Notes under the pieces: model-generated
Told to the model about the DNA's origin: nothing
Seen by the model: only the letters and a program-made list of their open reading frames with translations
The model's database searches: none
Assembly (NCBI GenBank): GCA_963675665.1
Contig: OY776510.1
Span: 3,392,001 to 3,456,000 of the forward strand
Source of the DNA: Spirochaetia bacterium
Lineage (GTDB): Bacteria > Spirochaetota > Spirochaetia > UBA9216
DNA length: 64,000 nt
Reading direction: 5' to 3'
Part shown: piece after piece, positions 48,399 to 58,590 of the stretch
Position numbering within the stretch: the stretch's first letter is position 1
Layout: each line of letters begins with the position of its first letter
Program-made: the position numbers and the translations under genes

Positions 48399-49907
48399 TT
48401 ATTCGATATTATCATTGTTTATTTCAAGAGTTTCTGTCTGCGTTAATCTGAGAAACTCGGAGTCAAACGGGCGAAACCCGTAAATGCTTAATGCTCCCGG
48501 AGTAAGCACAAGCGTTCTCTCTATAGACATTTCTTTCTGTTCTTCCGTATAACCAAGTGCATAGGAACGTTCTTCAATGACTATCCCGCGGTCGTCAAGA
48601 ATCTTTAAACTGAGAATATTGATATCTGCTTTATAGACTGCGAATCCTCCGGTGATTTCTTCAAAAGAGTTTTTCATATAAAAATCTGAGCCGTAAAACT
48701 CAATAATATCACCGGAACCGCTGATATATTGTCCGGAAAGTTCCGGTAATGATGTATAGTCGATTACCCGATCCAAATCCAGGACAGTTTCTTCCTGCAT
48801 ATCCGCACTCATGCGGGTATAATTTCCTGTCCAGATATCATTGGACCCCTTTGTTCTGGTTTGGCTGTCGATATCCCTGACGGTAACGTTTATTTCGTTC
48901 AGATCAAGAATTTTAATATAAAATTCATTTTCAATATAATTAATTATCTCATTTCTGCACCGGACATAGAGCAGGTTGCTGAGAACTTTATAGGAGTTTA
49001 TCCAGCTGTAATTTTCCTGGATATCATCAAGGTAAAAAGTTGAAGCTTTATTCACGGGATCAAAATAAATTATTTTATCGTCATCGTACCACGGGCCTTC
49101 GATAAAATCATAAAAAGCCAGTTCATCGCCGGTGAACAGTTCCTCAAGCTGATTTTCTGCTACAACAGTATTTTCGATTCTTTCCTGTGAAAGAAGAAGA
49201 TATTTCTTCAAAGGAAAATCCCAATAGTATCTGGAAACAATAAGCTCGTTTTCATCTGCTTCGCTTGTTACTGTAATTGTATAACTGATCCCGTTTTTAA
49301 GGCCCTGATGGTACCCTCTTGAACGTTCAAGTTGATTAATCTCTATTGTTCCGCGTTCAGCAATATTAAAGACAGGCAGATATACCGGCTGGTTTCTTTC
49401 GGTTGTATTCTTCCAGAAAATATCAAGCGTTGTATTGCCGTCGGAATCACGGCCGGAGCATACAATCTCGGAGTTATGATCTCCGATAATATCATCAAGA
49501 TAAACAATAAATGATCTGATGTTTTCGGCTTTGGTCCGGCCATTCCAGACGCGTGAATAACTATTCTGGACATTGTCAAAATCGGCAATGGCAATATGTA
49601 TAAAACCGTCGGGATTGGATCGTTCACGGAATACAAGCATCTGTTCTTCCTGGGCATCAAGATCTATGTTCAGGTTAATTGTAGAAATAAGGATCTCATC
49701 AGAACCGAGAGGAATCAGCGGCTTGTCCGAATCAGTGTCGAACGCGCTGCTGTTATATATATTGTCAATTGAATCGCCGTCTTCTGCAGAGGGAGTAATA
49801 TCAGTAACCATTTCAGGAGATTTGTATTCTTCATCCTTGTCCATGCATGAAAGGACAATCAATAAAAAAAATATAACAGAAAAAATATGTAAACTATATC
49901 TAATCAT
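48399..49907 (-). CDS. Pallilysin (TP0751)-related lipoprotein
   Basis: Lipobox IVLS-C; NIDLDAQEEQ, DIIGDH..EIV..G, GTIEI..ERS..Y, Y.WD motifs; genomic position beside vWA and cfpA as in Treponema. Confidence 0.65.
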   Translation of the reverse strand: MIRYSLHIFSVIFFLLIVLSCMDKDEEYKSPEMVTDITPSAEDGDSIDNIYNSSAFDTDSDKPLIPLGSDEILISTINLNIDLDAQEEQMLVFRERSNPDGFIHIAIADFDNVQNSYSRVWNGRTKAENIRSFIVYLDDIIGDHNSEIVCSGRDSDGNTTLDIFWKNTTERNQPVYLPVFNIAERGTIEINQLERSRGYHQGLKNGISYTITVTSEADENELIVSRYYWDFPLKKYLLLSQERIENTVVAENQLEELFTGDELAFYDFIEGPWYDDDKIIYFDPVNKASTFYLDDIQENYSWINSYKVLSNLLYVRCRNEIINYIENEFYIKILDLNEINVTVRDIDSQTRTKGSNDIWTGNYTRMSADMQEETVLDLDRVIDYTSLPELSGQYISGSGDIIEFYGSDFYMKNSFEEITGGFAVYKADINILSLKILDDRGIVIEERSYALGYTEEQKEMSIERTLVLTPGALSIYGFRPFDSEFLRLTQTETLEINNDNIE

Positions 49908-50892
49908 TTCCCGGCTGCGCAAAGTATTTATTAAGCATATCTAACACTTTTACCTTGATTTCTTCAAGTGGGTATTTGCTTTTAAATCCTGCCGCGGTTT
50001 TATGACCTCCGCCGTTATAAATCTGGGCAATGAATGCTACGTCAATATTACCCTTTGAACGGAGAGAACAACGGAGGATGCCTTCAAGATTTTCCTTGAA
50101 AAAAACCGATACTTTGATCTCTTCACTTTTAAGAGGAATATTAATAAGAGAATCAGCTTCTTCATAAAGGGCGCCGCTCTCAATAATATCTTCTTTGCGC
50201 ATTGTCTGAACAGCAACATGATTGTCATAGAAGAACTCAAGAGTTGAAAGAACTTTGGACTGAAGCATAAGCGATGATATTGAATTGCTCTCATAAAGTT
50301 TTGAGTAAATGAAATTCGGGTTAACTCCGAGTCTTACACATGATTCTGCGATTGAGAAAGTCCTTGCTGTTGTTTTGGGATAAATAAAAGAACCAGTGTC
50401 GTAGACAATGCCCAGATAGATTGCAACGGCCATCTCGTATGAAATTTCAATCTTCATTTCATTAAAAAGCTCAAACAGCATTTCGCATGTCGAGGAAGCT
50501 TCGCTTTCAATATGATTTGCTGTCGAAACCGAATCTCCGCCCTCGTGGTGATCGAAAATAAAATAGTTTTTTACTTTGGAAAGAACGTTTAATTTTATGG
50601 AACCGATATTGTTTATATCGTTTGTATCAAGAATGAGAAGCACCCAGTCGGATATATCATCAGGAAGCTGACTATCATCCTTGTAAAGTTCAATTATATT
50701 GTCGATATCAAGAAAATAATATTTTTCCGCCATAGGATCAGCATTAATTATCTTTATCGTTTTACCTAAAGTTTTTAGAGCAAGATATGCAGCAATCTCG
50801 CTGCCTATTGCGTCGCCGTCAGGGGTTTCATGTGCAGTGAGAATGAACTTGTCATGATTATTAATAAAATCAGCTATCGCTTGAAATCTCAT
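49900..50892 (-). CDS. DHH/DHHA1 phosphoesterase (NrnA/DhhP-like)
   Basis: HETPDGDAIGS, LDT, FDHH, ASST, YDTGSF, SLRS, GGGHKTAAG. Confidence 0.92.
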   Translation of the reverse strand: MRFQAIADFINNHDKFILTAHETPDGDAIGSEIAAYLALKTLGKTIKIINADPMAEKYYFLDIDNIIELYKDDSQLPDDISDWVLLILDTNDINNIGSIKLNVLSKVKNYFIFDHHEGGDSVSTANHIESEASSTCEMLFELFNEMKIEISYEMAVAIYLGIVYDTGSFIYPKTTARTFSIAESCVRLGVNPNFIYSKLYESNSISSLMLQSKVLSTLEFFYDNHVAVQTMRKEDIIESGALYEEADSLINIPLKSEEIKVSVFFKENLEGILRCSLRSKGNIDVAFIAQIYNGGGHKTAAGFKSKYPLEEIKVKVLDMLNKYFAQPGND

Positions 50893-52051
50893 TAGTTTTA
50901 TTTTTTTTCCTTTCATCGTCGTCTTTATGCAGAATAAGGTTCCTGATAAGTATAAAGGCTATTATACCTGCAATGACAAGAATTACTATAATAATTATAA
51001 GCCAATTGAATCCGCCGATCACGTCTTTTGATTCATTTTTTTCGTTTTTTATTACGTTTTCAGTTTTACTGGCTATTTCAGAATTCTTCTCCGAACCCAA
51101 GTTACAGGAAAAGACAGCCGGAAGAAAGGGGGTGTCTCCTTCAAATTTGAAGATGACTGTACCATCAGTATTTTCAGGTATAATTCCGTTGAGCACTTCC
51201 GATGATAATGTGATATGAATATCGATTGAACTTTCAGGACTTATTGTAGTCGAGTATTTATTATCAAGCAGATGATAATTGCCGCTGCTGTTCTGGAATG
51301 TGATTTGTTCTATGATGACAGTCCTTTCCGATACATAACCTTCGCTGGAAAGAGAAAGGCTTAGAACGCCCCTGGTAATTTCGAAATTATCTGCTGTTAC
51401 CCTGCCGATAATTTCCGACTGACTGATTGGCGGCGGGAGTTCACCGGTAAAATCAAGCGTTTTGTGTGTAGTCGCAAGTTCTTCGGCAAGTTCTTCTACG
51501 GCCGTATCTGTTCCAATCCCCAAAATCATAATTTTCCAGCCTTCGCGCTGAATGGTTTTTGTGTTTTCAAGAAATTTGTGATTAAAGCTGCCGTCCGGGG
51601 TGTAATAGGGACTTTCAGGTGGGGCTTCCTGTTTGCCGTCGGTCAGCAGGATAAGATATTTTCGGTCGAAACGCTGTTGCGTGTCGTTTACAGCAGAATC
51701 AAGCCTGTCAAGAGCATTTCCGATATCTGTAAACCGGCCGTCGGCAGGTATAGCCTTTATAGTATTCATTATGCTGTAAATATTATTTTCTTTGACTATG
51801 CCGTCAAATACAAGATCAGCGTTACCGTAGAACTGAATGAAAACAAGACGATCTCCGGGAATGAGAAAGTCGCTGATAAAATATTCGTTTATATAGGACG
51901 TAACATCATCGATCTCTTCTACCATGGATTTGCTTTTGTCAACGACCAGAAACAGTTCGATATTCTCTGTTCTGGTATCTGCCGAAACGGTAATGACATT
52001 TGCCAGTAATAGAAATAAAGCCGTTATTAAAATTGTAAATTTTTTATACAT
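50870..52051 (-). CDS. vWA-domain membrane protein (TP0750-like)
   Basis: Signal peptide, MIDAS motif VDKSKSM, FTDIG, LLTDG; C-terminal TM anchor. Confidence 0.88.
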   Translation of the reverse strand: MYKKFTILITALFLLLANVITVSADTRTENIELFLVVDKSKSMVEEIDDVTSYINEYFISDFLIPGDRLVFIQFYGNADLVFDGIVKENNIYSIMNTIKAIPADGRFTDIGNALDRLDSAVNDTQQRFDRKYLILLTDGKQEAPPESPYYTPDGSFNHKFLENTKTIQREGWKIMILGIGTDTAVEELAEELATTHKTLDFTGELPPPISQSEIIGRVTADNFEITRGVLSLSLSSEGYVSERTVIIEQITFQNSSGNYHLLDNKYSTTISPESSIDIHITLSSEVLNGIIPENTDGTVIFKFEGDTPFLPAVFSCNLGSEKNSEIASKTENVIKNEKNESKDVIGGFNWLIIIIVILVIAGIIAFILIRNLILHKDDDERKKNKTNEISSDS

Positions 52052-52127: not shown

Positions 52128-52193
52128 CTTACTTTACATATCAGCATGGTTATTGATAATCTGTATACTGATAAAACTAGTAAGGAGAGTCAA

Positions 52194-54248
52194 ATGGGAA
52201 GCGTAGATTTACCAAAAAGTCCAATGGTATTCCACCCGGAAAAAAGAAGTGCGGTGGGTTCCAGGAACTCTCTTGCCCAGGAAAGCAGGGACCAACAGGC
52301 TGAAGTAGAACGGCTGCTTGAAGAAGAAGTCGACAAAGTAATAAACCATATGACAGCAAAATTACCCGATGAAGTTCTTTCAGAACTTGATGTAATGGGA
52401 GGTTTGAAAGAAAAGGTTTATAATTACTTCAACCAGAATTACCAGAACATGTTCAACCGTTATATTGTAACTGCTGAAGATGAAATGGTAAAAAAGGTAA
52501 GAAACTTCGTTGATAAAGAGGAAATGAAGGTTCTTACAAGATACACCCCGAAAGAAATAGCTACACTGCTTGAAGAAGTAGGTGGAATGGATCGCTTCAA
52601 TACCGGCGAAATTGAGAAATCAATTGTAAACATGTACGGACACCTGCAGGGACATATACAGCGTGGTATGAATGATCTTGAAAACCTGACCAATTCACTG
52701 CTGAGACAAAAAACGGATGTTGGTGCTTTTATCAGAGGCGAGAACGCGTATTCGGTTGTAAAATGTTCATTCAAGGACAGTATTCAGAAACCTAAAACTG
52801 TATGCAACGTAAAACTGTCAGTCAATATTCTTGATTCGGAACTGATAAGTCCAATCTTTCATTATCAGGCAACTGTAGAGTATTTGATTAAGGATTTGAT
52901 TTCAAAACAGATTATCGATGCAATCGATAAGGAAATCGAAGTTTTCAAGGATGAAAGACTCGACAAGGGGCTTGAAGAATTAAACGACAGTGAAATAATC
53001 TTCACCAAGATGGGGAAGGTTGAAAACCACACATCCGATGATGTCAACAATGCAAAATCAGCACGGTACAGCTACATTTCAAAGAGCATAATGGAAAAGG
53101 TTGAAGGCCTTCGGGCCGAGATTGATCCTGAAGAATTCGATCCGCTTAATATCAGGGAAAATCTTAAAAAGATTATGGATATCGAGAATATTCGTAACAG
53201 AGGGTATAATACCGCCATTAACTCAATTACAAGTATTCTTGATACTTCAAAGATGGGTTATCAGTATATAGAGAACCTTAAAAATGCACGCGAGCTTGTA
53301 ATTCGTGAATACGAAGATACAGACGATGCAACTTTACCTGATGAACGTTACAAAATAAGAATGAAATACTACGATAATGCACAGCTCATCGAAGAAAGAA
53401 AAGCCTATGATGTACAGGTTAAATCTTTTGAGGTTGAAGTTGAACACATCTGGGACGTTCTTGAAATGGTATACGTAGACGGAAAGAGAATGAAAAGAGT
53501 CACTGACTTTGAAGATCTCTCTAAAATCTACAAAAACAAGGTTAAGAAAAAAATAAAGGTAAAAACCGGTGATCCGGTTTACGAAGATATAGAAAAAAGC
53601 TGGGATGAAGTATCTTTTGTAGATGCTGCTGAAACTGAAGTAGAAAAAATGAACAGGACTTATGTTTTCCAGAAAGATAAACTGCATAAGAAACTTGTTA
53701 TGATGAGAGAAAAACTTCAGGAGATGTACGGTTACAGGTATCCGGTTCAGAGAAGGGTAATGGAAGACAGACTGGCTTTTCTTACTTCTGAATTTGCGAA
53801 ATTTGATTACATCATTAATCCGTATCATATTCAGCCGGGACTCCTTCTTGATGTTGATATTACTTCAATAAAAAGAAAGAAAGCGACTCTGGACGGTATG
53901 GCTAATGTTCTCAATGAATTCCTGCACGGTGTTTCCAAAGGTTTTCAGGATGCAGCATTCGCAGCCTTCTCAAGAAGAAGATCGACCGTACGTGAAGATA
54001 TAGACATGAGCTTTTCATCAGATCTTGAAGAAGAAGATGCGGGGCACCAGCAGTCTTTGGGTTCATCATATCTTGATATGTTGAATGCGCCTGCAGAAAG
54101 CAGTCCTGCTGAAACAACAATTAAAGAAAAAGCACCGGCCAAAAAAACAAAAGCTAAATCTACTGCCAAATCAAAAGGCGTTGTGGATAATGATAAAACA
54201 AAAACTAGACGTGGCAGGCCCAGGAAGAGTAATTTGGATACTATCTGA
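52194..54248 (+). CDS. cfpA: Cytoplasmic filament protein A
   Basis: [24 protein letters not shown]-terminus, [40 protein letters not shown], matching treponemal CfpA as recalled; AAGGAG RBS before ATG 52194. Confidence 0.9.
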
Positions 54249-54270: not shown

Positions 54271-54298
54271 AATCCCCTGTTGAGAAACAGGGGATTTT
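54271..54298 (+). terminator. Intrinsic terminator after cfpA
   Basis: AATCCCCTGTT-GAGA-AACAGGGGATT followed by a short T run. Confidence 0.7.
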
Positions 54299-54316
54299 AA
54301 ATTGAGGTTGCCAAAT

Positions 54317-55318
54317 ATGAATAAAATACTTCGCGTTTATGATAACCTATCAAGCAGGCAGGGGTTTAATGACTCTTTGCTTCATTTTCAGTCTGTAATG
54401 GACATAATTTCTGATTTTGAAGAGGGATATAATCTTGCAGATATACTTAACAGTCTTTTATCTGCCAAAGATATTCAACAGGGGCAGGTAGCTTCAATTG
54501 TTTCGGCTCTTCTGAATGATAAATACGGCTATTACAGCAAATCCGGAAACCTTTCAGTAACAACACACGATTTTGAAACTATTAAATCGGAATTAAAAAA
54601 ACTAAAGGCATTTGATTCTGTTATATGCTATCACCATCCCGAATTGGGATATCTTGTTATTAATCCAAAAAATGAACAAAGCTGGGATGTAACCAACGAG
54701 TTGAGAAAAAATGAGTTTGTTACTGTTTTTGTAGGTACCTTTTCAGACGAGAAAAGAGAAAATGTTCCCAGGGACAAAGTAGCGGAAAAGATCTTTGAAA
54801 TAATAAACGGCAAGAAATCAGTTTTATCTGATGTTATGAAAAAGGGCAGTTATAAGTATACTCCTTATGAAGCTTATGAAGATGAAGAAGAGTATGAAGA
54901 TGAACAGGAATATGAAGATGAAACGGAACCGGATGAGGAAGTAGAAACAGTACAGCCTAAACAGGAGCCGCAAAAGAGCAGCGGATCACAAAAAATGACG
55001 CCGATGTATTCAGTTCCTGTTACCAACGAGTTGTTTCATAACGGTAATGTTGAGGCCTGGAAAAGAATTATTCAGAGTTACAATGCAAAAAATCCGAATC
55101 TTGAAGTACATATTTTTTATGATGGAGAGAGGATTTTAAATATCGCTTCGCTTTTCAAGTGGGGAAAAGTAAAACACGGCAGTGCTATTTTGTTTGCCGT
55201 AGCAGGGGATGATATAAAGGATGTAGCAAAACTTCAGAAATATTTGAAACAGGGTGCAAGTCATCAGTTCGAAGCTTTTCTGAAATTCCCTGTTAATACG
55301 GTAATAAATCTTTTCTAG
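54317..55318 (+). CDS. Protein with unknown N-terminal domain, acidic linker and C-terminal HPr-like domain
   Basis: ATG 54317 after GAGG. C-terminal ~90 aa align by eye to HPr (VTNELFH ~ [19 protein letters not shown] ~ [24 protein letters not shown] ~ [14 protein letters not shown]). Confidence 0.7.
   Translation: [333 protein letters not shown]
54875..54928 (+). repeat. Three tandem 18-bp units encoding YEDE(E/Q/T)E
   Basis: TATGAAGATGAAGAAGAG / TATGAAGATGAACAGGAA / TATGAAGATGAAACGGAA. Confidence 0.8.
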
Positions 55319-55334: not shown

Positions 55335-57971
55335 ATGGATATAAAAGAAAATACATATTTTATCACTAATAAAGCTTCAGCGAAAAAAACACCTGATTCA
55401 AATAAAATAGGTATTAGGGGGCAGCACGCATATGATCTTATGAAAATGGGTCTTCCTGTAGTACCTGGATTTATTATTAATACGGTAGCTTCGCCGCGGC
55501 TGGAAAAAGAAGATGATCTGATTAGTATTTTTAAACCTTTTTTCGATTATTACCGTAAACTTTCAGGCAAGGTTTTTGACAGTGAAGACAACCCCATGCT
55601 TTTAAAGATTGTACTGAGTTCAAATCTTGCAATAGCTTCTTATCCGACGTTGCACAATTTCGGTCTTGCAGATAACACCTTTGAAGGTTTCAGCAAATAT
55701 GTTGGAAAAGATTTTGCAAACCATGAATTCCTGTTCATGCTGAACGGTCTTTTTCAGGTTGAATTGAGAATTGCTGAACTTCTTGAAGATAATAAAGCGA
55801 TCGACAGATACCGTAAAAATCTTAAAAAGCTGAAAGTTCTGAATTCCGAAGATAAAAAGGTTGATTATAACAAGATACTGGAAGGTTTCAAGAATGAACT
55901 TGAACCCGGTCTGTTTAAAAGCGCATCGGAACAGATGAAGATTGTGCTTAAAAGAGTAAGTTATCTGATTAAACTTGAAGATGTGGAAGACACAGGAGTT
56001 GCTATTCTTGTGCAGCCGATGGTATACGGCAATTACGGTAAAGACAGTTATTCGGGCTATTTTTCAACAAGAAACGCAATAACCGGAGATGCTGTTCTGG
56101 ATGGCGAGTTTTTCCAGAATAAATTCAATTCTGCCGAATCAACAGGAAAAGATATCAACAAGATTGACAGGAAATATCTTGATGAATTTAAAGAAATTGC
56201 AGTTAAGCTTGAAGATGAATATCGTGAAATCAGAAAAATAGGTTTCACTATTGAAAGCGGGCGATTATCGCTGATAAACCAGAATCCTGTAAATGAAAAA
56301 TCAACGAGAGCAGATATTAAACTGCTACTGGATCTTTACAATAACAAAACTATTGATCAGAAAGAAGTAATAACAGGTATCAAACCTTCGCAGCTAAACG
56401 AGTTGCTGCATCCGGTTATTGATATGAAATCAGTTCAGAATTTAAAGAAAATCGACGGCGGTATTTCCGGGGCTCCGGGGGCAACCATAGGAAGAGTCTT
56501 TTTCTCTACCGAGGCGCTTCTCGATGAGTTTAAAAATGCCAGACTTAATGATATGGACGACAGGCTTATACTTTGTCTGACTTCCAGTTTTGCAGAAGAC
56601 GTAAAGGCAATTGAAGTTTCATCGGGGGTCCTTTCTTCTGAGGGAGGCTATTCAGCTCATGCATCGGTAGTAGCACGTCAGTACGGGAAGGTTTCGCTTG
56701 TAAATCCCGCTATGAAAATCAGCGGAAATAAAGCGGTAATCGGTGATGTTACCATAAAAGAAGGCGATGTAATAACGTTGAATGTTCCGGACTTTGCCGC
56801 GCCGAGCATATATCTTGGCCAGGCAGGCCTGATACAACCGGATCCTGCAAAAAACGGTTTGATTGAATTTTCAAAAATTGTAAAGGAAAATATAGAAAAC
56901 TTTGAAATCAGGGCAAACTGCGACAAGGCAAACGACGCCAAGCTCGCGCTGGCGTTCGGAGCTGACGGTATAGGTCTCTGCAGAACAGAGCATATGTTTT
57001 TTGACGAGTCACGGATTAATGTTTTCAGAGAAATGATTTTTTCAGAGGATGACTCGAAAAGAAAAGCTGTTCTCAAGAAATTAAAAACAATGCAGAAAAA
57101 AGATTTTACCGATCTGCTGAGCGTAATGGCCGGCAAAGAGGTAAACATCCGACTGCTTGATGCTCCATTGCATGAATTTCTGCCCCATAATAAAGCAGAG
57201 ATAAAAGCTTTTTGTGATTATATGAAAAAATCAACGGGAAAGAGCTTTACCGAGAAAAATCTTCAGGAAAAATCGGAGAGTCTTAGGGAATTTAACCCGA
57301 TGCTCGGGCACCGCGGTTGCAGAATAGCAGTATCATACCCGGAAATATATCAAATGCAGGTTGAAGCCATATTTGAAGCTGCTTATGAGCTGCAGGCAAA
57401 GAAAATAGTTGTCAAACCGGAAATCATGGTGCCTTTGATTATGAATGAAGCAGAACTGAAGATGATTCTATACGGAAAGAAAATCGAAGGTTCGCAGTAT
57501 CCGGGTCTTCTTGAAGTAGAAAAGGAAATTCGCGAGAAGATGAAAGCCAAACCGCTAAAATTTAAAGTCGGAACGATGATTGAACTTCCTGCAGCCGCCC
57601 TGTCCGCCGGTAATATTGCGCGTTATGCTGAATTCTTTTCATTCGGTACAAATGATCTTACCCAGACTACACTTGGCCTTTCAAGAGATGATTTCACTTC
57701 TTTTATGCCTGATTACACCTTGTACGACATTATAAGCGGAAATCCTTTCAGAACACTTGAAAAGCCGGTAAAGGAACTTATTGCACGCGCTATACAGCGC
57801 GGAACAATAACAAGACCGGACTTGCTGAAAGGACTATGCGGCGAGCATGGAGCAGCCCCTGAAAATATAGATTTCTGTATCAATGTTGGGCTTGATTATG
57901 TTTCATGTTCTACATATTCGGTGCCTATTGCCGCATTATCCGCTGCACAGGCATTGATTAAAAGAAAATAG
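55335..57971 (+). CDS. Pyruvate phosphate dikinase-like PEP-utilising protein with degenerate ATP-grasp domain
   Basis: PPDK three-domain layout; phospho-His loop GGYSAHASVVAR; intact PEP/pyruvate barrel (GIGLCRTEHMFF, RLLD.PLHEF, NPMLGHRGCR, MIE, FSFGTNDLTQ, CGEHG); nucleotide-site motifs altered. Confidence 0.85.
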   Translation: MDIKENTYFITNKASAKKTPDSNKIGIRGQHAYDLMKMGLPVVPGFIINTVASPRLEKEDDLISIFKPFFDYYRKLSGKVFDSEDNPMLLKIVLSSNLAIASYPTLHNFGLADNTFEGFSKYVGKDFANHEFLFMLNGLFQVELRIAELLEDNKAIDRYRKNLKKLKVLNSEDKKVDYNKILEGFKNELEPGLFKSASEQMKIVLKRVSYLIKLEDVEDTGVAILVQPMVYGNYGKDSYSGYFSTRNAITGDAVLDGEFFQNKFNSAESTGKDINKIDRKYLDEFKEIAVKLEDEYREIRKIGFTIESGRLSLINQNPVNEKSTRADIKLLLDLYNNKTIDQKEVITGIKPSQLNELLHPVIDMKSVQNLKKIDGGISGAPGATIGRVFFSTEALLDEFKNARLNDMDDRLILCLTSSFAEDVKAIEVSSGVLSSEGGYSAHASVVARQYGKVSLVNPAMKISGNKAVIGDVTIKEGDVITLNVPDFAAPSIYLGQAGLIQPDPAKNGLIEFSKIVKENIENFEIRANCDKANDAKLALAFGADGIGLCRTEHMFFDESRINVFREMIFSEDDSKRKAVLKKLKTMQKKDFTDLLSVMAGKEVNIRLLDAPLHEFLPHNKAEIKAFCDYMKKSTGKSFTEKNLQEKSESLREFNPMLGHRGCRIAVSYPEIYQMQVEAIFEAAYELQAKKIVVKPEIMVPLIMNEAELKMILYGKKIEGSQYPGLLEVEKEIREKMKAKPLKFKVGTMIELPAAALSAGNIARYAEFFSFGTNDLTQTTLGLSRDDFTSFMPDYTLYDIISGNPFRTLEKPVKELIARAIQRGTITRPDLLKGLCGEHGAAPENIDFCINVGLDYVSCSTYSVPIAALSAAQALIKRK

Positions 57972-58041: not shown

Positions 58042-58590
58042 TTAGAAAATGCTGAATTTTTTTATAGCCTCAATAACAAGTTTTGCTGCTTCCTGAGCGT
58101 CCCTTTTGGGAACCTGAGCTTCCCTGTTGAATGTTTGAACAAAAAAGAACTCAATTGTTTCAAAAACATCCGGAAGATTATAAAAACAAAGTGCGAAGTT
58201 AATACCGGTCGGTTTTAAAATTGTAAATGAAGAATAGGTGACAAGAGGTTCTTTCGGGACCATAATCTTGTACTGATTTTTGGCATTATGTATATTCAGT
58301 TCACTGAATCTGAAGGGGATGGAACTTCCATGTTCACGGGATACGGGCTCCACATATTTTCTTGAATACATGGTTGGTTCAACAAGAATGTACAGTTTGC
58401 AGCCGTCAGTCTGAAAAGTAATACCTTCGTCGCTTGCAGTAATATTTTTAACACCGCCGTAAGCAACAACTTCATATATAGAGTAAGGTGAATTATTCTT
58501 AAAAAAGGACGACACTATATAACCGCCGTCATGCGGAAGCTTACCTTCATGATAAGCCTGAAAAAGATCCAAAGCTTTTGTTTGAGCCAT
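58042..58590 (-). CDS. Hypothetical protein, 182 aa
   Basis: Clean ORF with AGGAGG RBS and a near-consensus promoter; no recognised domain. Confidence 0.8.
   Translation of the reverse strand: MAQTKALDLFQAYHEGKLPHDGGYIVSSFFKNNSPYSIYEVVAYGGVKNITASDEGITFQTDGCKLYILVEPTMYSRKYVEPVSREHGSSIPFRFSELNIHNAKNQYKIMVPKEPLVTYSSFTILKPTGINFALCFYNLPDVFETIEFFFVQTFNREAQVPKRDAQEAAKLVIEAIKKFSIF

What the first reader, a model, noticed from the sequence alone, without database searches (positions are those of the whole stretch)
54995..55318. Unannotated HPr-fold domain with His15 and Ser46 equivalents
The C-terminus [81 protein letters not shown] aligns end to end by eye with Bacillus HPr ([79 protein letters not shown]). 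His (55037-55039) matches His15, and NIAS Ser (55148-55150) matches NLKS Ser46, the HPrK/P site. HARP is replaced by HNGN, which would likely hide it from standard profiles and may insulate it from canonical Enzyme I and EIIA. It is fused through an acidic linker to a ~185-aa unknown N-terminal domain that could be the output.
Basis: partly seen in the sequence, partly recalled or inferred. Interest (0 to 1): 0.85.

Follow-up and report, generated by a model that had tools for sequence, protein, structure and literature searches.

The report
HPr-like domain beside PPDK-like enzyme
The tail of a conserved spirochaete protein of unknown function is predicted to fold like the sugar-system phosphate carrier HPr, keeps a histidine at the carrier's active position, and is always encoded next to an altered pyruvate-phosphate-dikinase-like enzyme, so the two may form an undescribed phosphate relay.

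Summary
It belongs to the spirochaete-only TP_0747 family, whose N-domain is Pfam PF27497.

At sequence level the "by eye" HPr alignment is chance (BLASTP, Pfam, hhalign, shuffle z). Two AlphaFold models nevertheless put HPr/Crh first in all five fold searches (Z 6.2-7.8, whole HPr chain aligned). His246 caps helix A as His15 does and is kept in 74 of 77 relatives. The "Ser46" is not conserved (S37/T19/A18/N1/E1), so the HPrK idea fails.

The new context matters more:
- The downstream "ppdK" is not the genome's true PPDK, which lies elsewhere. It is a paralogue that keeps the catalytic His and the PEP domain but has lost most invariant ATP-grasp residues.
- In a 401-genome sample, cfpA, this gene and the paralogue co-occur almost perfectly, even where they are unlinked.

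Best reading (about 0.4): an Enzyme-I/HPr-like pair derived from PPDK and tied to the CfpA cytoplasmic filament. Phosphotransfer is inferred, not shown. The complex prediction gave only weak support.

The parts
52146..54248 (+). cfpA, cytoplasmic filament protein A (700 aa)
   Evidence: NCBIfam NF040882 cfpA_ASD scores 1183 bits against a cut-off of 500. It lies upstream of the gene in 76 of 80 related loci; the other 4 are cut by the contig end.
54271..54296 (+). 11-bp GC-rich hairpin followed by a U-rich stretch, between cfpA and the next gene (terminator- or attenuator-like)
   Evidence: Pattern scan. RNA fold gives -18.6 kcal/mol, z -3.47, and 0 of 200 shuffles fold as well.
54317..55318 (+). 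TP_0747-family gene (333 aa from the ATG; 338 aa from the TTG at 54302). Residue numbers in this report use the 338-aa form.
   Evidence: ORF. 3025 homologues at E<=0.001 among 4519 candidates, and all 120 listed carry PF27497. AlphaFold model has mean pLDDT 88.5.
54317..54856 (+). N-terminal domain (residues 6-185): four helices, then a beta-alpha-beta-beta-alpha-beta-alpha unit. This is Pfam TP_0747_N.
   Evidence: Precomputed PF27497, named. Secondary structure. Residues 76-170 align to NPr 5t17 at Z 5.1, rmsd 2.6, 81 of 85 residues, which is a weak match.
54857..54994 (+). Low-complexity linker (residues 186-231). It is acidic here, and basic or Pro-rich and of variable length in relatives.
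   Evidence: pLDDT is 56-72. The alignment columns are variable.
54995..55318 (+). C-terminal HPr-like domain (residues 232-338). The part that aligns to the whole HPr chain is residues 233-325 (54998-55276).
   Evidence: Domain model has pLDDT 93 and pTM 0.87. Foldseek ranks 1-14 are HPr/Crh. VIA ranks 1-28 are HPr/Crh at Z 6.2-7.8. VIA-wide ranks 1-4 are HPr.
55037..55039 (+). His246 codon (CAT), at the N-cap of helix A. This is the candidate phospho-acceptor.
   Evidence: Sequence. DSSP helix starts at residue 247. His in 74 of 77 relatives. In the structural alignments it lies within one residue of His15 if the first segment is ungapped.
55148..55150 (+). It is not conserved.
   Evidence: S37/T19/A18/N1/E1 of 77.
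55335..57971 (+). PPDK-like paralogue (878 aa). The catalytic-His swivel domain and the PEP/pyruvate domain are intact; the ATP-grasp domain is degenerate or re-purposed.
   Evidence: TIGR01828 scores 633 bits against a cut-off of 843. It is 33% identical to the genome's canonical PPDK. Domain-wise loss of invariant residues is shown. It starts 16 nt after the upstream stop codon, preceded by a GAGGA motif. It lies directly downstream in 80 of 80 loci.
56658..56660 (+). Catalytic His442 codon of the PPDK-like enzyme (motif GGYSAH)
   Evidence: Translation. His is kept in 77 of 77 paralogues at the column of the canonical catalytic His.

Best explanation
The gene encodes the spirochaete TP_0747-family protein. 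Its C-terminal ~95 residues form an HPr-like open-faced beta-sandwich with a nearly invariant histidine (His246) at the N-terminus of helix A.

Proposed mechanism: it works with the enzyme encoded 16 nt downstream. That enzyme is a PPDK paralogue that has kept what Enzyme I has (a PEP-binding barrel and a swivelling catalytic His) but has lost the ATP/AMP site of its ATP-grasp domain.
1. The enzyme takes the phosphoryl group from PEP onto its own His442.
2. Having no nucleotide to pass it to, it hands it to His246 of the HPr-like domain.
3. The N-terminal TP_0747_N domain, tethered by a flexible linker, couples this state to the CfpA cytoplasmic filament, or passes the phosphate on.

Shown here: the predicted fold, the conservation of the His, the identity and altered residue pattern of the partner enzyme, and the conserved three-gene module.

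Inferred, not shown: binding, phosphotransfer, and the link to CfpA.
For: Fold:
- HPr/Crh are the top hits with both models and both aligners. Full model, Foldseek: top hit Crh 1zvv_J, probability 0.96, TM(target) 0.62.
- Full model, VIA-wide over 48,161 chains: ranks 1-4 are HPr, Z 7.1-7.6, rmsd 2.4-2.8, 80-81 residues aligned of 84-88.
- Domain model, Foldseek: ranks 1-14 are HPr/Crh, probability up to 0.99, TM(target) up to 0.67.
- Domain model, VIA: ranks 1-28 are HPr/Crh, Z 6.2-7.8. VIA-wide: ranks 1-4 are HPr, Z 6.6-7.1.

His and surface:
- His246 is present in 74 of 77 relatives.
- The most conserved blocks are the His loop (5 of 7 columns >=90%), helix A (9 of 17) and the loop after helix B (6 of 10). 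By recall, this is the face HPr uses for its partners.

Partner enzyme:
- The genome's canonical PPDK is elsewhere (1317.8 bits; L096).
- Of columns invariant in 21 canonical spirochaete PPDKs, the 77 paralogues keep 100 of 126 in the PEP domain but only 23 of 128 in the nucleotide domain, where 71 are lost in >=90% of paralogues.
- The catalytic His is kept in 77 of 77.
- Residues that by recall bind Mg-ATP in C. symbiosum PPDK are replaced: R92 to V in 75, G101 deleted in 72, R135 to F in 72, D321 to S in 44, E323 to R in 65, Q335 to D/E in 72.
- In one genome (G347) the paralogue has no N-domain at all: 586 aa, with only the mobile and PEP domains, and a start that overlaps the upstream stop.

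Linkage:
- The paralogue lies directly downstream in 80 of 80 loci. It stays there in 7 further loci fetched (6 where cfpA is unlinked, plus L093, cut by its contig end).
- In 401 Spirochaetota genomes the gene was found in 145, cfpA in 148 and the paralogue's N-domain in 142. Gene and cfpA together in 144; gene and paralogue together in 141 (cross-tabulated by reading the tables).
- In 7 genomes of family f47 all three are present on different contigs.
- T. denticola TDE0842-0844 (cfpA, hypothetical, putative PPDK) are co-repressed (PMC3914990 Table 5, passages read).
- One predicted ORF fuses CfpA to the TP_0747 N-domain (P0249).

Complex prediction: verdict 'weak support'.
- Score 0.45 (runs 0.45, 0.39, 0.45); best of 3 controls 0.00.
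- The mark was reached by 116 of 157 solved complexes and 2 of 215 mismatched pairs. Scores of 0.60 or under were reached by only 18 of those 157 and by both passing mismatches.
- The runs share >=54% of contacts and the partner pLDDT is >=79.
- My own alignments were used, so the counts hold only roughly.
- No interface was returned. EI-HPr complexes are solved, so likeness may contribute.
Against: - No sequence or profile similarity to HPr.
- Z of 7-8 is what models without true relatives often reach. The first non-HPr chain (phosphoglucosamine mutase domain, Z 6.1-6.4) is only 1.0-1.7 below the best HPr.
- With ungapped offsets, His246 aligns to HPr residue 14, not 15.
- HPr's Arg17 is absent: the motif is H-N-G-N.
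- One full-length relative has Ser in place of the His (P0147), and two short stand-alone relatives lack it.
- The whole His loop is conserved, not just the His, so the His could be structural.
- The paralogue's N-domain is not decaying. 56 of 321 columns are >=90% conserved and several substitutions are to new invariant residues, so it could bind a nucleotide or another substrate in a new way.
- G102 is a 1.1-Mb genome that I infer to belong to the T. pallidum group. In it the paralogue is the only PPDK-type gene and no pyruvate kinase was found. The literature treats TP0746 as the glycolytic PPDK (PMC10013896, passages read). A GTP-PEPCK is present as another exit from PEP.
- The genes are adjacent, so joint loss can be a single deletion, and co-occurrence among kin is not independent.
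- The roles of the PPDK residues are recalled; I found no paper in the library to cite for them.
Confidence: 0.4

Rival explanations
1. The HPr-like domain is a non-phosphorylated binding or regulatory subunit of the PPDK-like enzyme. It docks on the enzyme, for instance on its altered N-domain or His domain, to regulate it, complete it or localise it. The enzyme remains a dikinase of some kind, and His246 is a contact or structural residue.
For: - The same linkage data as for the best explanation and the same weak complex support (score 0.45, best control 0.00, with the caveats given there).
- The whole His loop and the 'FKWGKV' loop are conserved, as expected for an interface.
- The paralogue's N-domain carries new invariant residues rather than decay.
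- In G102 the paralogue is the only PPDK-type gene and no pyruvate kinase was found, which fits a metabolic enzyme. The literature assumes this (PMC10013896).
Against: - The Mg-ATP ligand positions are replaced in most paralogues.
- One lineage lacks the N-domain altogether.
- A His exactly at the helix-A N-cap of an HPr fold, beside a PEP-utilising enzyme, is what a carrier would look like.
Confidence: 0.3
2. The protein is an accessory of the CfpA cytoplasmic filament, such as a bridging or anchoring component. The resemblance of its C-domain to HPr is a common alpha/beta sandwich arrangement, and the neighbouring PPDK-like gene is only an operon companion.
For: - Near-perfect co-occurrence with cfpA: 144 genomes with both, 1 with the gene only, 4 with cfpA only, of 401.
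- cfpA is upstream in 76 of 80 loci.
- A CfpA + N-domain fusion ORF exists (P0249).
- The Z-scores are middling and other folds lie within 1.0-1.7 Z.
- There is no sequence homology to HPr.
Against: - Where synteny breaks, the gene stays with the PPDK-like gene rather than with cfpA (L086-L090, L092).
- Spacing to the PPDK-like gene is 0-210 nt in 80 of 80 loci, whereas a hairpin separates it from cfpA.
- The paralogue itself co-occurs with the gene in 141 genomes.
Confidence: 0.2
3. It is an ordinary, very divergent PTS HPr paralogue. It would be phosphorylated on His by Enzyme I and on the NIAS serine by HPr kinase.
For: - HPr-like fold and a conserved His.
- The genome has Enzyme I and HPrK.
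Against: - The Ser is not conserved; it is Ala in 18 of 77.
- There is no HPr signature around the His or the Ser.
- The genome already has two canonical HPrs, one of them next to hprK.
- HPr is found in 60 of 61 sampled Spirochaetota genomes, but this gene in only 145 of 401, in step with cfpA and the paralogue.
Confidence: 0.03

Closest known systems
HPr / NPr / Crh, the PTS histidine phosphocarriers (Pfam PF00381)
   Same: Predicted beta-alpha-beta-beta-alpha-beta-alpha fold with the whole HPr chain aligned (rmsd 2.0-3.0 A over 77-84 residues). A conserved His sits at the N-terminus of helix A. The gene is encoded beside a PEP-utilising enzyme with a swivelling His.
   Different: No detectable sequence or profile similarity. 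The motif is H-N-G-N rather than the G-I-H-A-R-P of the genome's own HPr. There is no conserved Ser46. The domain is fused behind a 185-aa domain and a linker. The partner is not Enzyme I. The range is confined to Spirochaetota that carry cfpA.
Enzyme I / EI-Ntr of the PTS (TIGR01417), as the analogue of the partner enzyme
   Same: The neighbouring enzyme keeps a PEP-binding barrel and a mobile His domain (Pfam PF02896 at 228 bits, PF00391). By its residues it seems to have no working nucleotide site.
   Different: By sequence it is a PPDK derivative (TIGR01828 633 bits against TIGR01417 102 bits). It has a full-length, altered ATP-grasp domain in place of EI's helical HPr-binding subdomain (the latter by recall).
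Canonical pyruvate, phosphate dikinase (TIGR01828)
   Same: The same three-domain order, colinear at 33% identity. The catalytic His and PEP-site motifs are kept.
   Different: Below the family cut-off (633 against 843 bits). 71 of 128 invariant nucleotide-domain residues are lost in >=90% of paralogues. Most genomes that have it also have a canonical PPDK elsewhere.
VadK of Mycobacterium tuberculosis, a PPDK-derived regulatory histidine kinase (PMC13400623, abstract only)
   Same: It is a precedent that a PPDK paralogue can leave central metabolism and act through its autophosphorylated His on partner proteins.
   Different: Different lineage and partners. I read only the abstract, so I cannot say which domains VadK keeps. 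No HPr-like partner is mentioned there.
TP_0747 family (Pfam PF27497, TP_0747_N; T. pallidum TP0747, T. denticola TDE0843)
   Same: The window's protein is a member and has the same gene order cfpA - gene - 'ppdK'.
   Different: None. The family has no published function in the library searched: searches for TP0747, TP_0747, TDE0843 and TDE_0843 found only one expression table.

Membership tests
HPr family (PTS phosphocarrier, PF00381) | Open-faced beta-sandwich, beta-alpha-beta-beta-alpha-beta-alpha | tested here: met
   Predicted models only. The secondary-structure order is as stated. HPr/Crh are the top structural neighbours, Z 6.2-7.8 with the whole chain aligned (Foldseek).
HPr family (PTS phosphocarrier, PF00381) | Active-site His at the N-cap of helix A | tested here: met
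   His246 immediately precedes the DSSP helix 247-263. It is His in 74 of 77 relatives. Ungapped structural offsets put it one residue before His15.
HPr family (PTS phosphocarrier, PF00381) | Sequence signature around the His (including Arg17) and a match to the family profile | tested here: not met
   No PF00381 match at E<=1. hhalign probability 0.7% and 0.4%. The motif is H-N-G-N, whereas H15, R17 and P18 are invariant in 31 spirochaete HPrs.
HPr family (PTS phosphocarrier, PF00381) | Regulatory Ser46 (Lys45-Ser46), the HPrK/P site | tested here: not met
   Position 283 is S37/T19/A18/N1/E1 of 77. In HPr, K45 is invariant and S46 is >=90% conserved.
HPr family (PTS phosphocarrier, PF00381) | Phosphorylated by Enzyme I and donates to EIIA | not testable with these tools
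   This needs biochemistry.
TP_0747 family (PF27497 TP_0747_N) | Match to the family's N-terminal domain model | tested here: met
   The precomputed Pfam column lists PF27497.1 for the window's own protein (P0002) and for all 120 homologues listed. The model is not in the local Pfam copy, so I could not rescore it.
Pyruvate, phosphate dikinase (TIGR01828), for the neighbouring gene | Score over the curated cut-off | tested here: not met
   633.2 bits against a cut-off of 843.45. The genome's other copy scores 1317.8.
Pyruvate, phosphate dikinase (TIGR01828), for the neighbouring gene | Catalytic His on the swivel domain, and PEP/pyruvate-site residues | tested here: met
   His kept in 77 of 77 paralogues. 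100 of 126 canonical-invariant columns of the C-domain are kept.
Pyruvate, phosphate dikinase (TIGR01828), for the neighbouring gene | ATP-grasp nucleotide/Mg site | tested here: not met
   23 of 128 canonical-invariant columns are kept and 71 are lost. Positions equivalent to R92, G101, R135, D321, E323 and Q335 are replaced (their roles are recalled). Pfam PPDK_N scores 20 bits against 186 bits in the canonical copy.
Enzyme I (TIGR01417), for the neighbouring gene | Score over the curated cut-off; N-terminal HPr-binding domain | tested here: not met
   102 bits against a cut-off of 341.7, and only the PEP domain matches. So the gene 'works like' Enzyme I at most; it is not a member.

The most novel reading that the evidence does not exclude
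Spirochaetes that build CfpA cytoplasmic filaments carry a third kind of PEP-dependent phosphorelay, alongside the sugar PTS and PTS-Ntr. A PPDK-derived, Enzyme-I-like enzyme (the TP0746/TDE0844 family) phosphorylates His246 of an HPr-fold domain in the TP0747/TDE0843 protein. That protein's N-domain reports the PEP/pyruvate state to the filament. As a corollary, the protein annotated as the only 'pyruvate phosphate dikinase' of the syphilis-group treponemes would not be a dikinase.
Probability: 0.3. Interest if true: 0.9.

Novelty: new variant of a known kind. Interest (0 to 1): 0.75.

Why it matters
- TP0747/TDE0843 is a highly conserved protein of unknown function. It is found in at least 573 species' genomes, including the treponemes of syphilis and periodontitis. 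No function for it was found in the library searched.
- If the reading holds, it gives this protein and the unexplained CfpA filament a testable biochemical handle.
- It would also show a second, independent route by which a PEP-utilising enzyme acquired an HPr-type carrier.
- It would call for re-examining the last step of glycolysis assumed for T. pallidum, where the paralogue is the only PPDK-type gene and no pyruvate kinase was found.
- Even if phosphotransfer is wrong, one result stands on residue counts alone: the X-linked 'ppdK' is a distinct paralogue with an altered nucleotide domain.

Tried and rejected
- PF27497 is not in the local Pfam or genome-search library, so I could not rescore it.
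- The Atlas does not hold the window's exact protein. I used homologue P0099 instead; only the family's own clusters came back.
- A profile of the family searched against PDB sequences gave only chance-level hits, E >= 0.071.
- hhalign of the N-domain alpha/beta part against the C-domain gave probability 0.5%, and against HPr 1.8%. There is no detectable internal duplication.
- Earlier findings of this scan: nothing by place or by sequence.
- Sequencing runs: no RNA holder was listed, so I did not lay reads and nothing can be said about expression in this organism.
- Literature search for the C. symbiosum PPDK site residues found 0 papers, so their roles remain recalled.
- A search combining HPr-like, PPDK, phosphocarrier and spirochete found nothing relevant.
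- I considered that the neighbouring gene is the organism's real PPDK. I rejected this because a canonical copy lies elsewhere.
- I considered the classical HPr/HPrK reading and rejected it (see rivals).
- No coordinates of the models or of the predicted complex are available to me. I therefore could not measure His246 exposure or a His-His distance.
- The N-domain was not folded alone (prediction cap reached), so its fold is only weakly tested.
- One mistaken coordinate set gave stop codons and was corrected.
Full report
**What is at the coordinates**

The + strand carries an ORF from 54302 (TTG) or, more likely, 54317 (ATG, with GAGG 8 nt upstream) to 55318. CAT at 55037-55039 encodes His246 and TCG at 55148-55150 encodes Ser283, in 338-aa numbering. 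An acidic, low-confidence linker (about residues 186-231) separates a ~185-aa N-domain from the C-domain.

The gene's neighbours are:
- Upstream: cfpA at 52146-54248 (NF040882, 1183 bits), followed by an 11-bp hairpin at 54271-54296.
- Downstream, 16 nt on: an 878-aa 'pyruvate phosphate dikinase'-like gene at 55335-57971.
- Further upstream: VWA, DHH and pallilysin-domain genes.

**Is the by-eye HPr alignment more than chance?**

At the level of sequence it is not. I used the genome's own two canonical HPrs, which score 109.5 and 95.9 bits to PF00381 (one lies next to hprK), and 29 HPrs from other Spirochaetota.
- BLASTP gave E 0.72 over six residues, and nothing at E<=100.
- Pfam PTS-HPr gave no match at E<=1.
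- hhalign of two family alignments against 31 HPrs gave probabilities of 0.7% and 0.4%.
- Global-alignment z-scores against shuffles averaged 0.58 (range -1.23 to 3.13), against 26 for HPr versus HPr.

**The family**

The protein has 3025 homologues at E<=0.001 among 4519 candidates. In a library clustered at 50% identity it has 188 cluster representatives. At least 573 species' genomes encode it, and all 80 loci kept come from Spirochaetota records. Its N-domain is Pfam PF27497, named TP_0747_N in Pfam 38.1. The protein is therefore the orthologue of T. pallidum TP0747 and T. denticola TDE0843. No paper in the searchable library discusses its function. The only mention is an expression table in which TDE0842 (cfpA), TDE0843 and TDE0844 (putative PPDK) are repressed together (PMC3914990, passages read).

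**Fold**

An AlphaFold2 model of the whole protein (64-row alignment) has mean pLDDT 88.5. A model of residues 225-338 alone (77 rows) has pLDDT 93 and pTM 0.87. The C-domain's secondary-structure order is beta-alpha-beta-beta-alpha-beta-alpha, followed by a short extra helix.

| Search | Model | Result |
|---|---|---|
| Foldseek vs PDB | full | HPr/Crh are the best and most frequent hits; 1zvv_J E 0.14, probability 0.96, TM(target) 0.62 |
| Foldseek vs PDB | domain | Ranks 1-14 all HPr/Crh; E 0.02-0.07, probability up to 0.99, TM(target) up to 0.67 |
| VIA-align vs 48,161 representatives | full | Ranks 1-4 HPr; Z 7.1-7.6, rmsd 2.4-2.8 A, 80-81 of 84-88 residues |
| VIA-align vs 48,161 representatives | domain | Ranks 1-4 HPr; Z 6.6-7.1 |
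| VIA-align on Foldseek's top 995 chains | domain | Ranks 1-28 HPr/Crh; Z 6.2-7.8, best 1opd at rmsd 2.0 A over 78 of 85 |

Caveats on the fold:
- No Foldseek E-value reaches 0.001.
- Z of 7-8 is the range the tool says unrelated models often reach.
- The first non-HPr chain (a phosphoglucosamine mutase domain, Z 6.1-6.4) is only 1.0-1.7 Z below the best HPr.

I therefore take the HPr-type topology as likely (about 0.8). Common descent from HPr is open.

**The two residues**

His246 sits immediately before helix A (DSSP helix from residue 247), where His15 sits in HPr. If the first aligned segment has no gap, the structural alignments put it opposite HPr residue 14, one residue off. It is His in 35 of 35 relatives, 30 of 30 and 74 of 77. 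The exceptions are one full-length protein with Ser and two short stand-alone relatives.

The most conserved parts of the domain are the His loop (5 of 7 columns >=90%), the first half of helix A (9 of 17) and the loop after helix B (6 of 10). By recall, that is the face HPr offers to its partners.

The proposed Ser46 equivalent fails. Position 283 is S37/T19/A18/N1/E1 of 77, and there is no Lys-Ser signature.

**The neighbour is not the genome's PPDK**

The genome has a canonical PPDK elsewhere (1317.8 bits to TIGR01828; 889 aa). The gene next to ours scores 633 bits, below the cut-off of 843, and is 33% identical to the canonical copy, though colinear with it.

I aligned 77 such paralogues with 21 canonical spirochaete PPDKs and took the columns that are >=95% invariant in the canonical set.

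| Domain | Canonical-invariant columns | Kept in >=90% of paralogues | Lost in >=90% of paralogues |
|---|---|---|---|
| PEP/pyruvate domain | 126 | 100 | 11 |
| Linker + His domain | 47 | 21 | 23 |
| Nucleotide (ATP-grasp) domain | 128 | 23 | 71 |

The catalytic His is kept in 77 of 77 paralogues (window His442, GGYSAH).

Positions that I recall as the Mg-ATP site of C. symbiosum PPDK are changed as follows. The numbering offset fits the canonical invariants exactly, but I found no paper to cite for their roles.
- K22 to R in 77 of 77.
- R92 to V in 75.
- G101 deleted in 72.
- R135 to F in 72.
- D321 to S in 44.
- E323 to R in 65.
- Q335 to D/E in 72.
- R337 kept in 63.

Several replacements are themselves invariant, so the domain looks re-purposed rather than decayed. 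In one genome (G347) the paralogue is 586 aa with no N-domain at all, and its start overlaps the upstream stop by 4 nt. What remains in common is a PEP barrel plus a swivelling His, which is what Enzyme I has.

**Linkage of the three genes**

Synteny:
- In 80 of 80 related loci the paralogue starts 0-210 nt downstream on the same strand.
- cfpA is upstream in 76 of 80; the other four are cut by contig ends.

Co-occurrence in an even sample of 401 Spirochaetota genomes (I cross-tabulated by reading the tables):

| Feature | Genomes with a match (of 401) |
|---|---|
| The TP_0747-family gene | 145 |
| cfpA | 148 |
| Paralogue's N-domain | 142 |
| Any PPDK | 282 |
| Gene and cfpA together | 144 (1 gene only, 4 cfpA only) |
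| Gene and paralogue together | 141 (4 gene only, 1 paralogue only) |

The odd cases are mostly genomes 80-90% complete or genes at contig ends.

Because the genes are adjacent, joint loss could be a single deletion, and kin are not independent. Two lineages are more informative:
- In genus g40 and a few others, cfpA has moved away but the paralogue stays directly downstream (L086-L090, L092).
- In seven genomes of family f47, all three genes are present on three different contigs (flanks checked for three of them).

One predicted 841-aa ORF fuses CfpA to the TP_0747 N-domain (P0249). This is a single metagenomic observation and could be an artefact.

**Complex prediction**

I submitted the paralogue (30-row alignment) and the C-domain (rows from the same loci in the same order). 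The verdict was 'weak support'.
- Score 0.45 (runs 0.45, 0.39, 0.45); best of three controls 0.00.
- The mark was reached by 116 of 157 solved complexes and 2 of 215 mismatched pairs.
- Scores of 0.60 or under were reached by only 18 of those 157 and by both mismatches that passed.
- The runs share >=54% of contacts and the partner pLDDT is >=79.
- My own alignments were used, so the counts hold only roughly.
- No interface was returned. Because EI-HPr complexes are solved, likeness may contribute.

**How it most likely works**

Inference, about 0.4:
1. The PPDK-derived enzyme autophosphorylates His442 from PEP.
2. Lacking a nucleotide site, it passes the phosphoryl group to His246 of the HPr-like domain.
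3. The tethered N-domain couples this to CfpA or to a further acceptor.

The logic resembles the regulatory PTS-Ntr.

Main rivals:
- The domain is a non-phosphorylated subunit or regulator of an enzyme that is still some kind of dikinase (0.3).
- The protein is a filament accessory and the fold likeness is incidental (0.2).
- It is a classical HPr served by EI and HPrK (0.03).

One fact weighs against a purely regulatory relay. G102 is a 1.1-Mb genome that I infer to belong to the T. pallidum group. In it the paralogue is the only PPDK-type gene and no pyruvate kinase was found. The literature treats TP0746 as the glycolytic enzyme (PMC10013896, passages read). A GTP-PEPCK is present there as another exit from PEP. 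The window's own genome, by contrast, has two pyruvate kinases, a canonical PPDK, at least two full Enzyme I genes and two HPrs. The module is therefore not needed for central metabolism in this organism.

**Comparison with what is known, and novelty**

- The C-domain works like HPr at most. It is not a member of the HPr sequence family, because the signature and the Ser site were tested and not met.
- The partner is a PPDK derivative, not an Enzyme I.
- PPDK paralogues re-used as regulatory His kinases have a recent precedent in M. tuberculosis VadK (PMC13400623, abstract only).
- I found no description of an HPr-fold protein paired with a PPDK-type enzyme.
- I rate it a new variant of a known kind, with interest 0.75.

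Noticed in passing
window 54527-54811 (residues 76-170 of the same protein): The alpha/beta part of the N-domain has the same beta-alpha-beta-beta-alpha-beta-alpha order. It aligned to NPr (5t17) at Z 5.1, rmsd 2.6, 81 of 85 residues. No sequence sign of an internal duplication was found (hhalign 0.5%). Its conserved Y-x-H-P...N-P-K-N motif is unexplained.
   Followed up: partly
L089 4594-6354 (-), genome G347: The PPDK-like paralogue here is only 586 aa. It has the mobile His and PEP domains but no ATP-grasp domain, and its GTG start overlaps the stop of the TP_0747-family gene by 4 nt.
   Followed up: partly
P0249 (metagenomic protein, 841 aa): One ORF reads CfpA (residues 8-594, 627 bits) straight into the TP_0747 N-domain (620-760) and ends in the linker. 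It is either a real fusion or a lost stop.
   Followed up: partly
L094 6044-6957, genome G332: The N- and C-domains of the TP_0747-family gene lie in two different frames (open frames of 274 and 126 aa). The gene is either split or frameshifted. The sister genome G380 has a single match.
   Followed up: no
genome G102 (1.1 Mb): No pyruvate kinase match. Enzyme I matches only in three pieces within one frame. The divergent paralogue is the only PPDK-type gene, and a GTP-PEPCK is present.
   Followed up: partly
window 54271-54296: A strong palindromic hairpin lies between cfpA and the next gene (-18.6 kcal/mol, z -3.47). No such structure lies between that gene and the PPDK-like gene. This suggests partial termination after cfpA and co-transcription of the downstream pair.
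   Followed up: partly
window 48399-52051 (- strand): Genes with pallilysin beta-barrel, DHH/DHHA1 and VWA domains are arranged divergently from cfpA. Parts of this order recur in many related loci.
   Followed up: no
window 58042-58590 (-): A 182-aa ORF with no Pfam match lies between the PPDK-like gene and a large TPR protein.
   Followed up: no
families f28, f14 and f36 of the genome sample (e.g. G056:C80, G018:C2, G104:C113): The paralogue sits in a ~965-972-aa frame and its N-domain matches in two pieces. This suggests an insertion of ~90 residues in the altered ATP-grasp domain.
   Followed up: no
P0267 and P0270 (115-118 aa): These are short stand-alone relatives of the C-domain (31-35% identity) that lack the His (Ile, Glu). 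Their origin and context are unknown.
   Followed up: no
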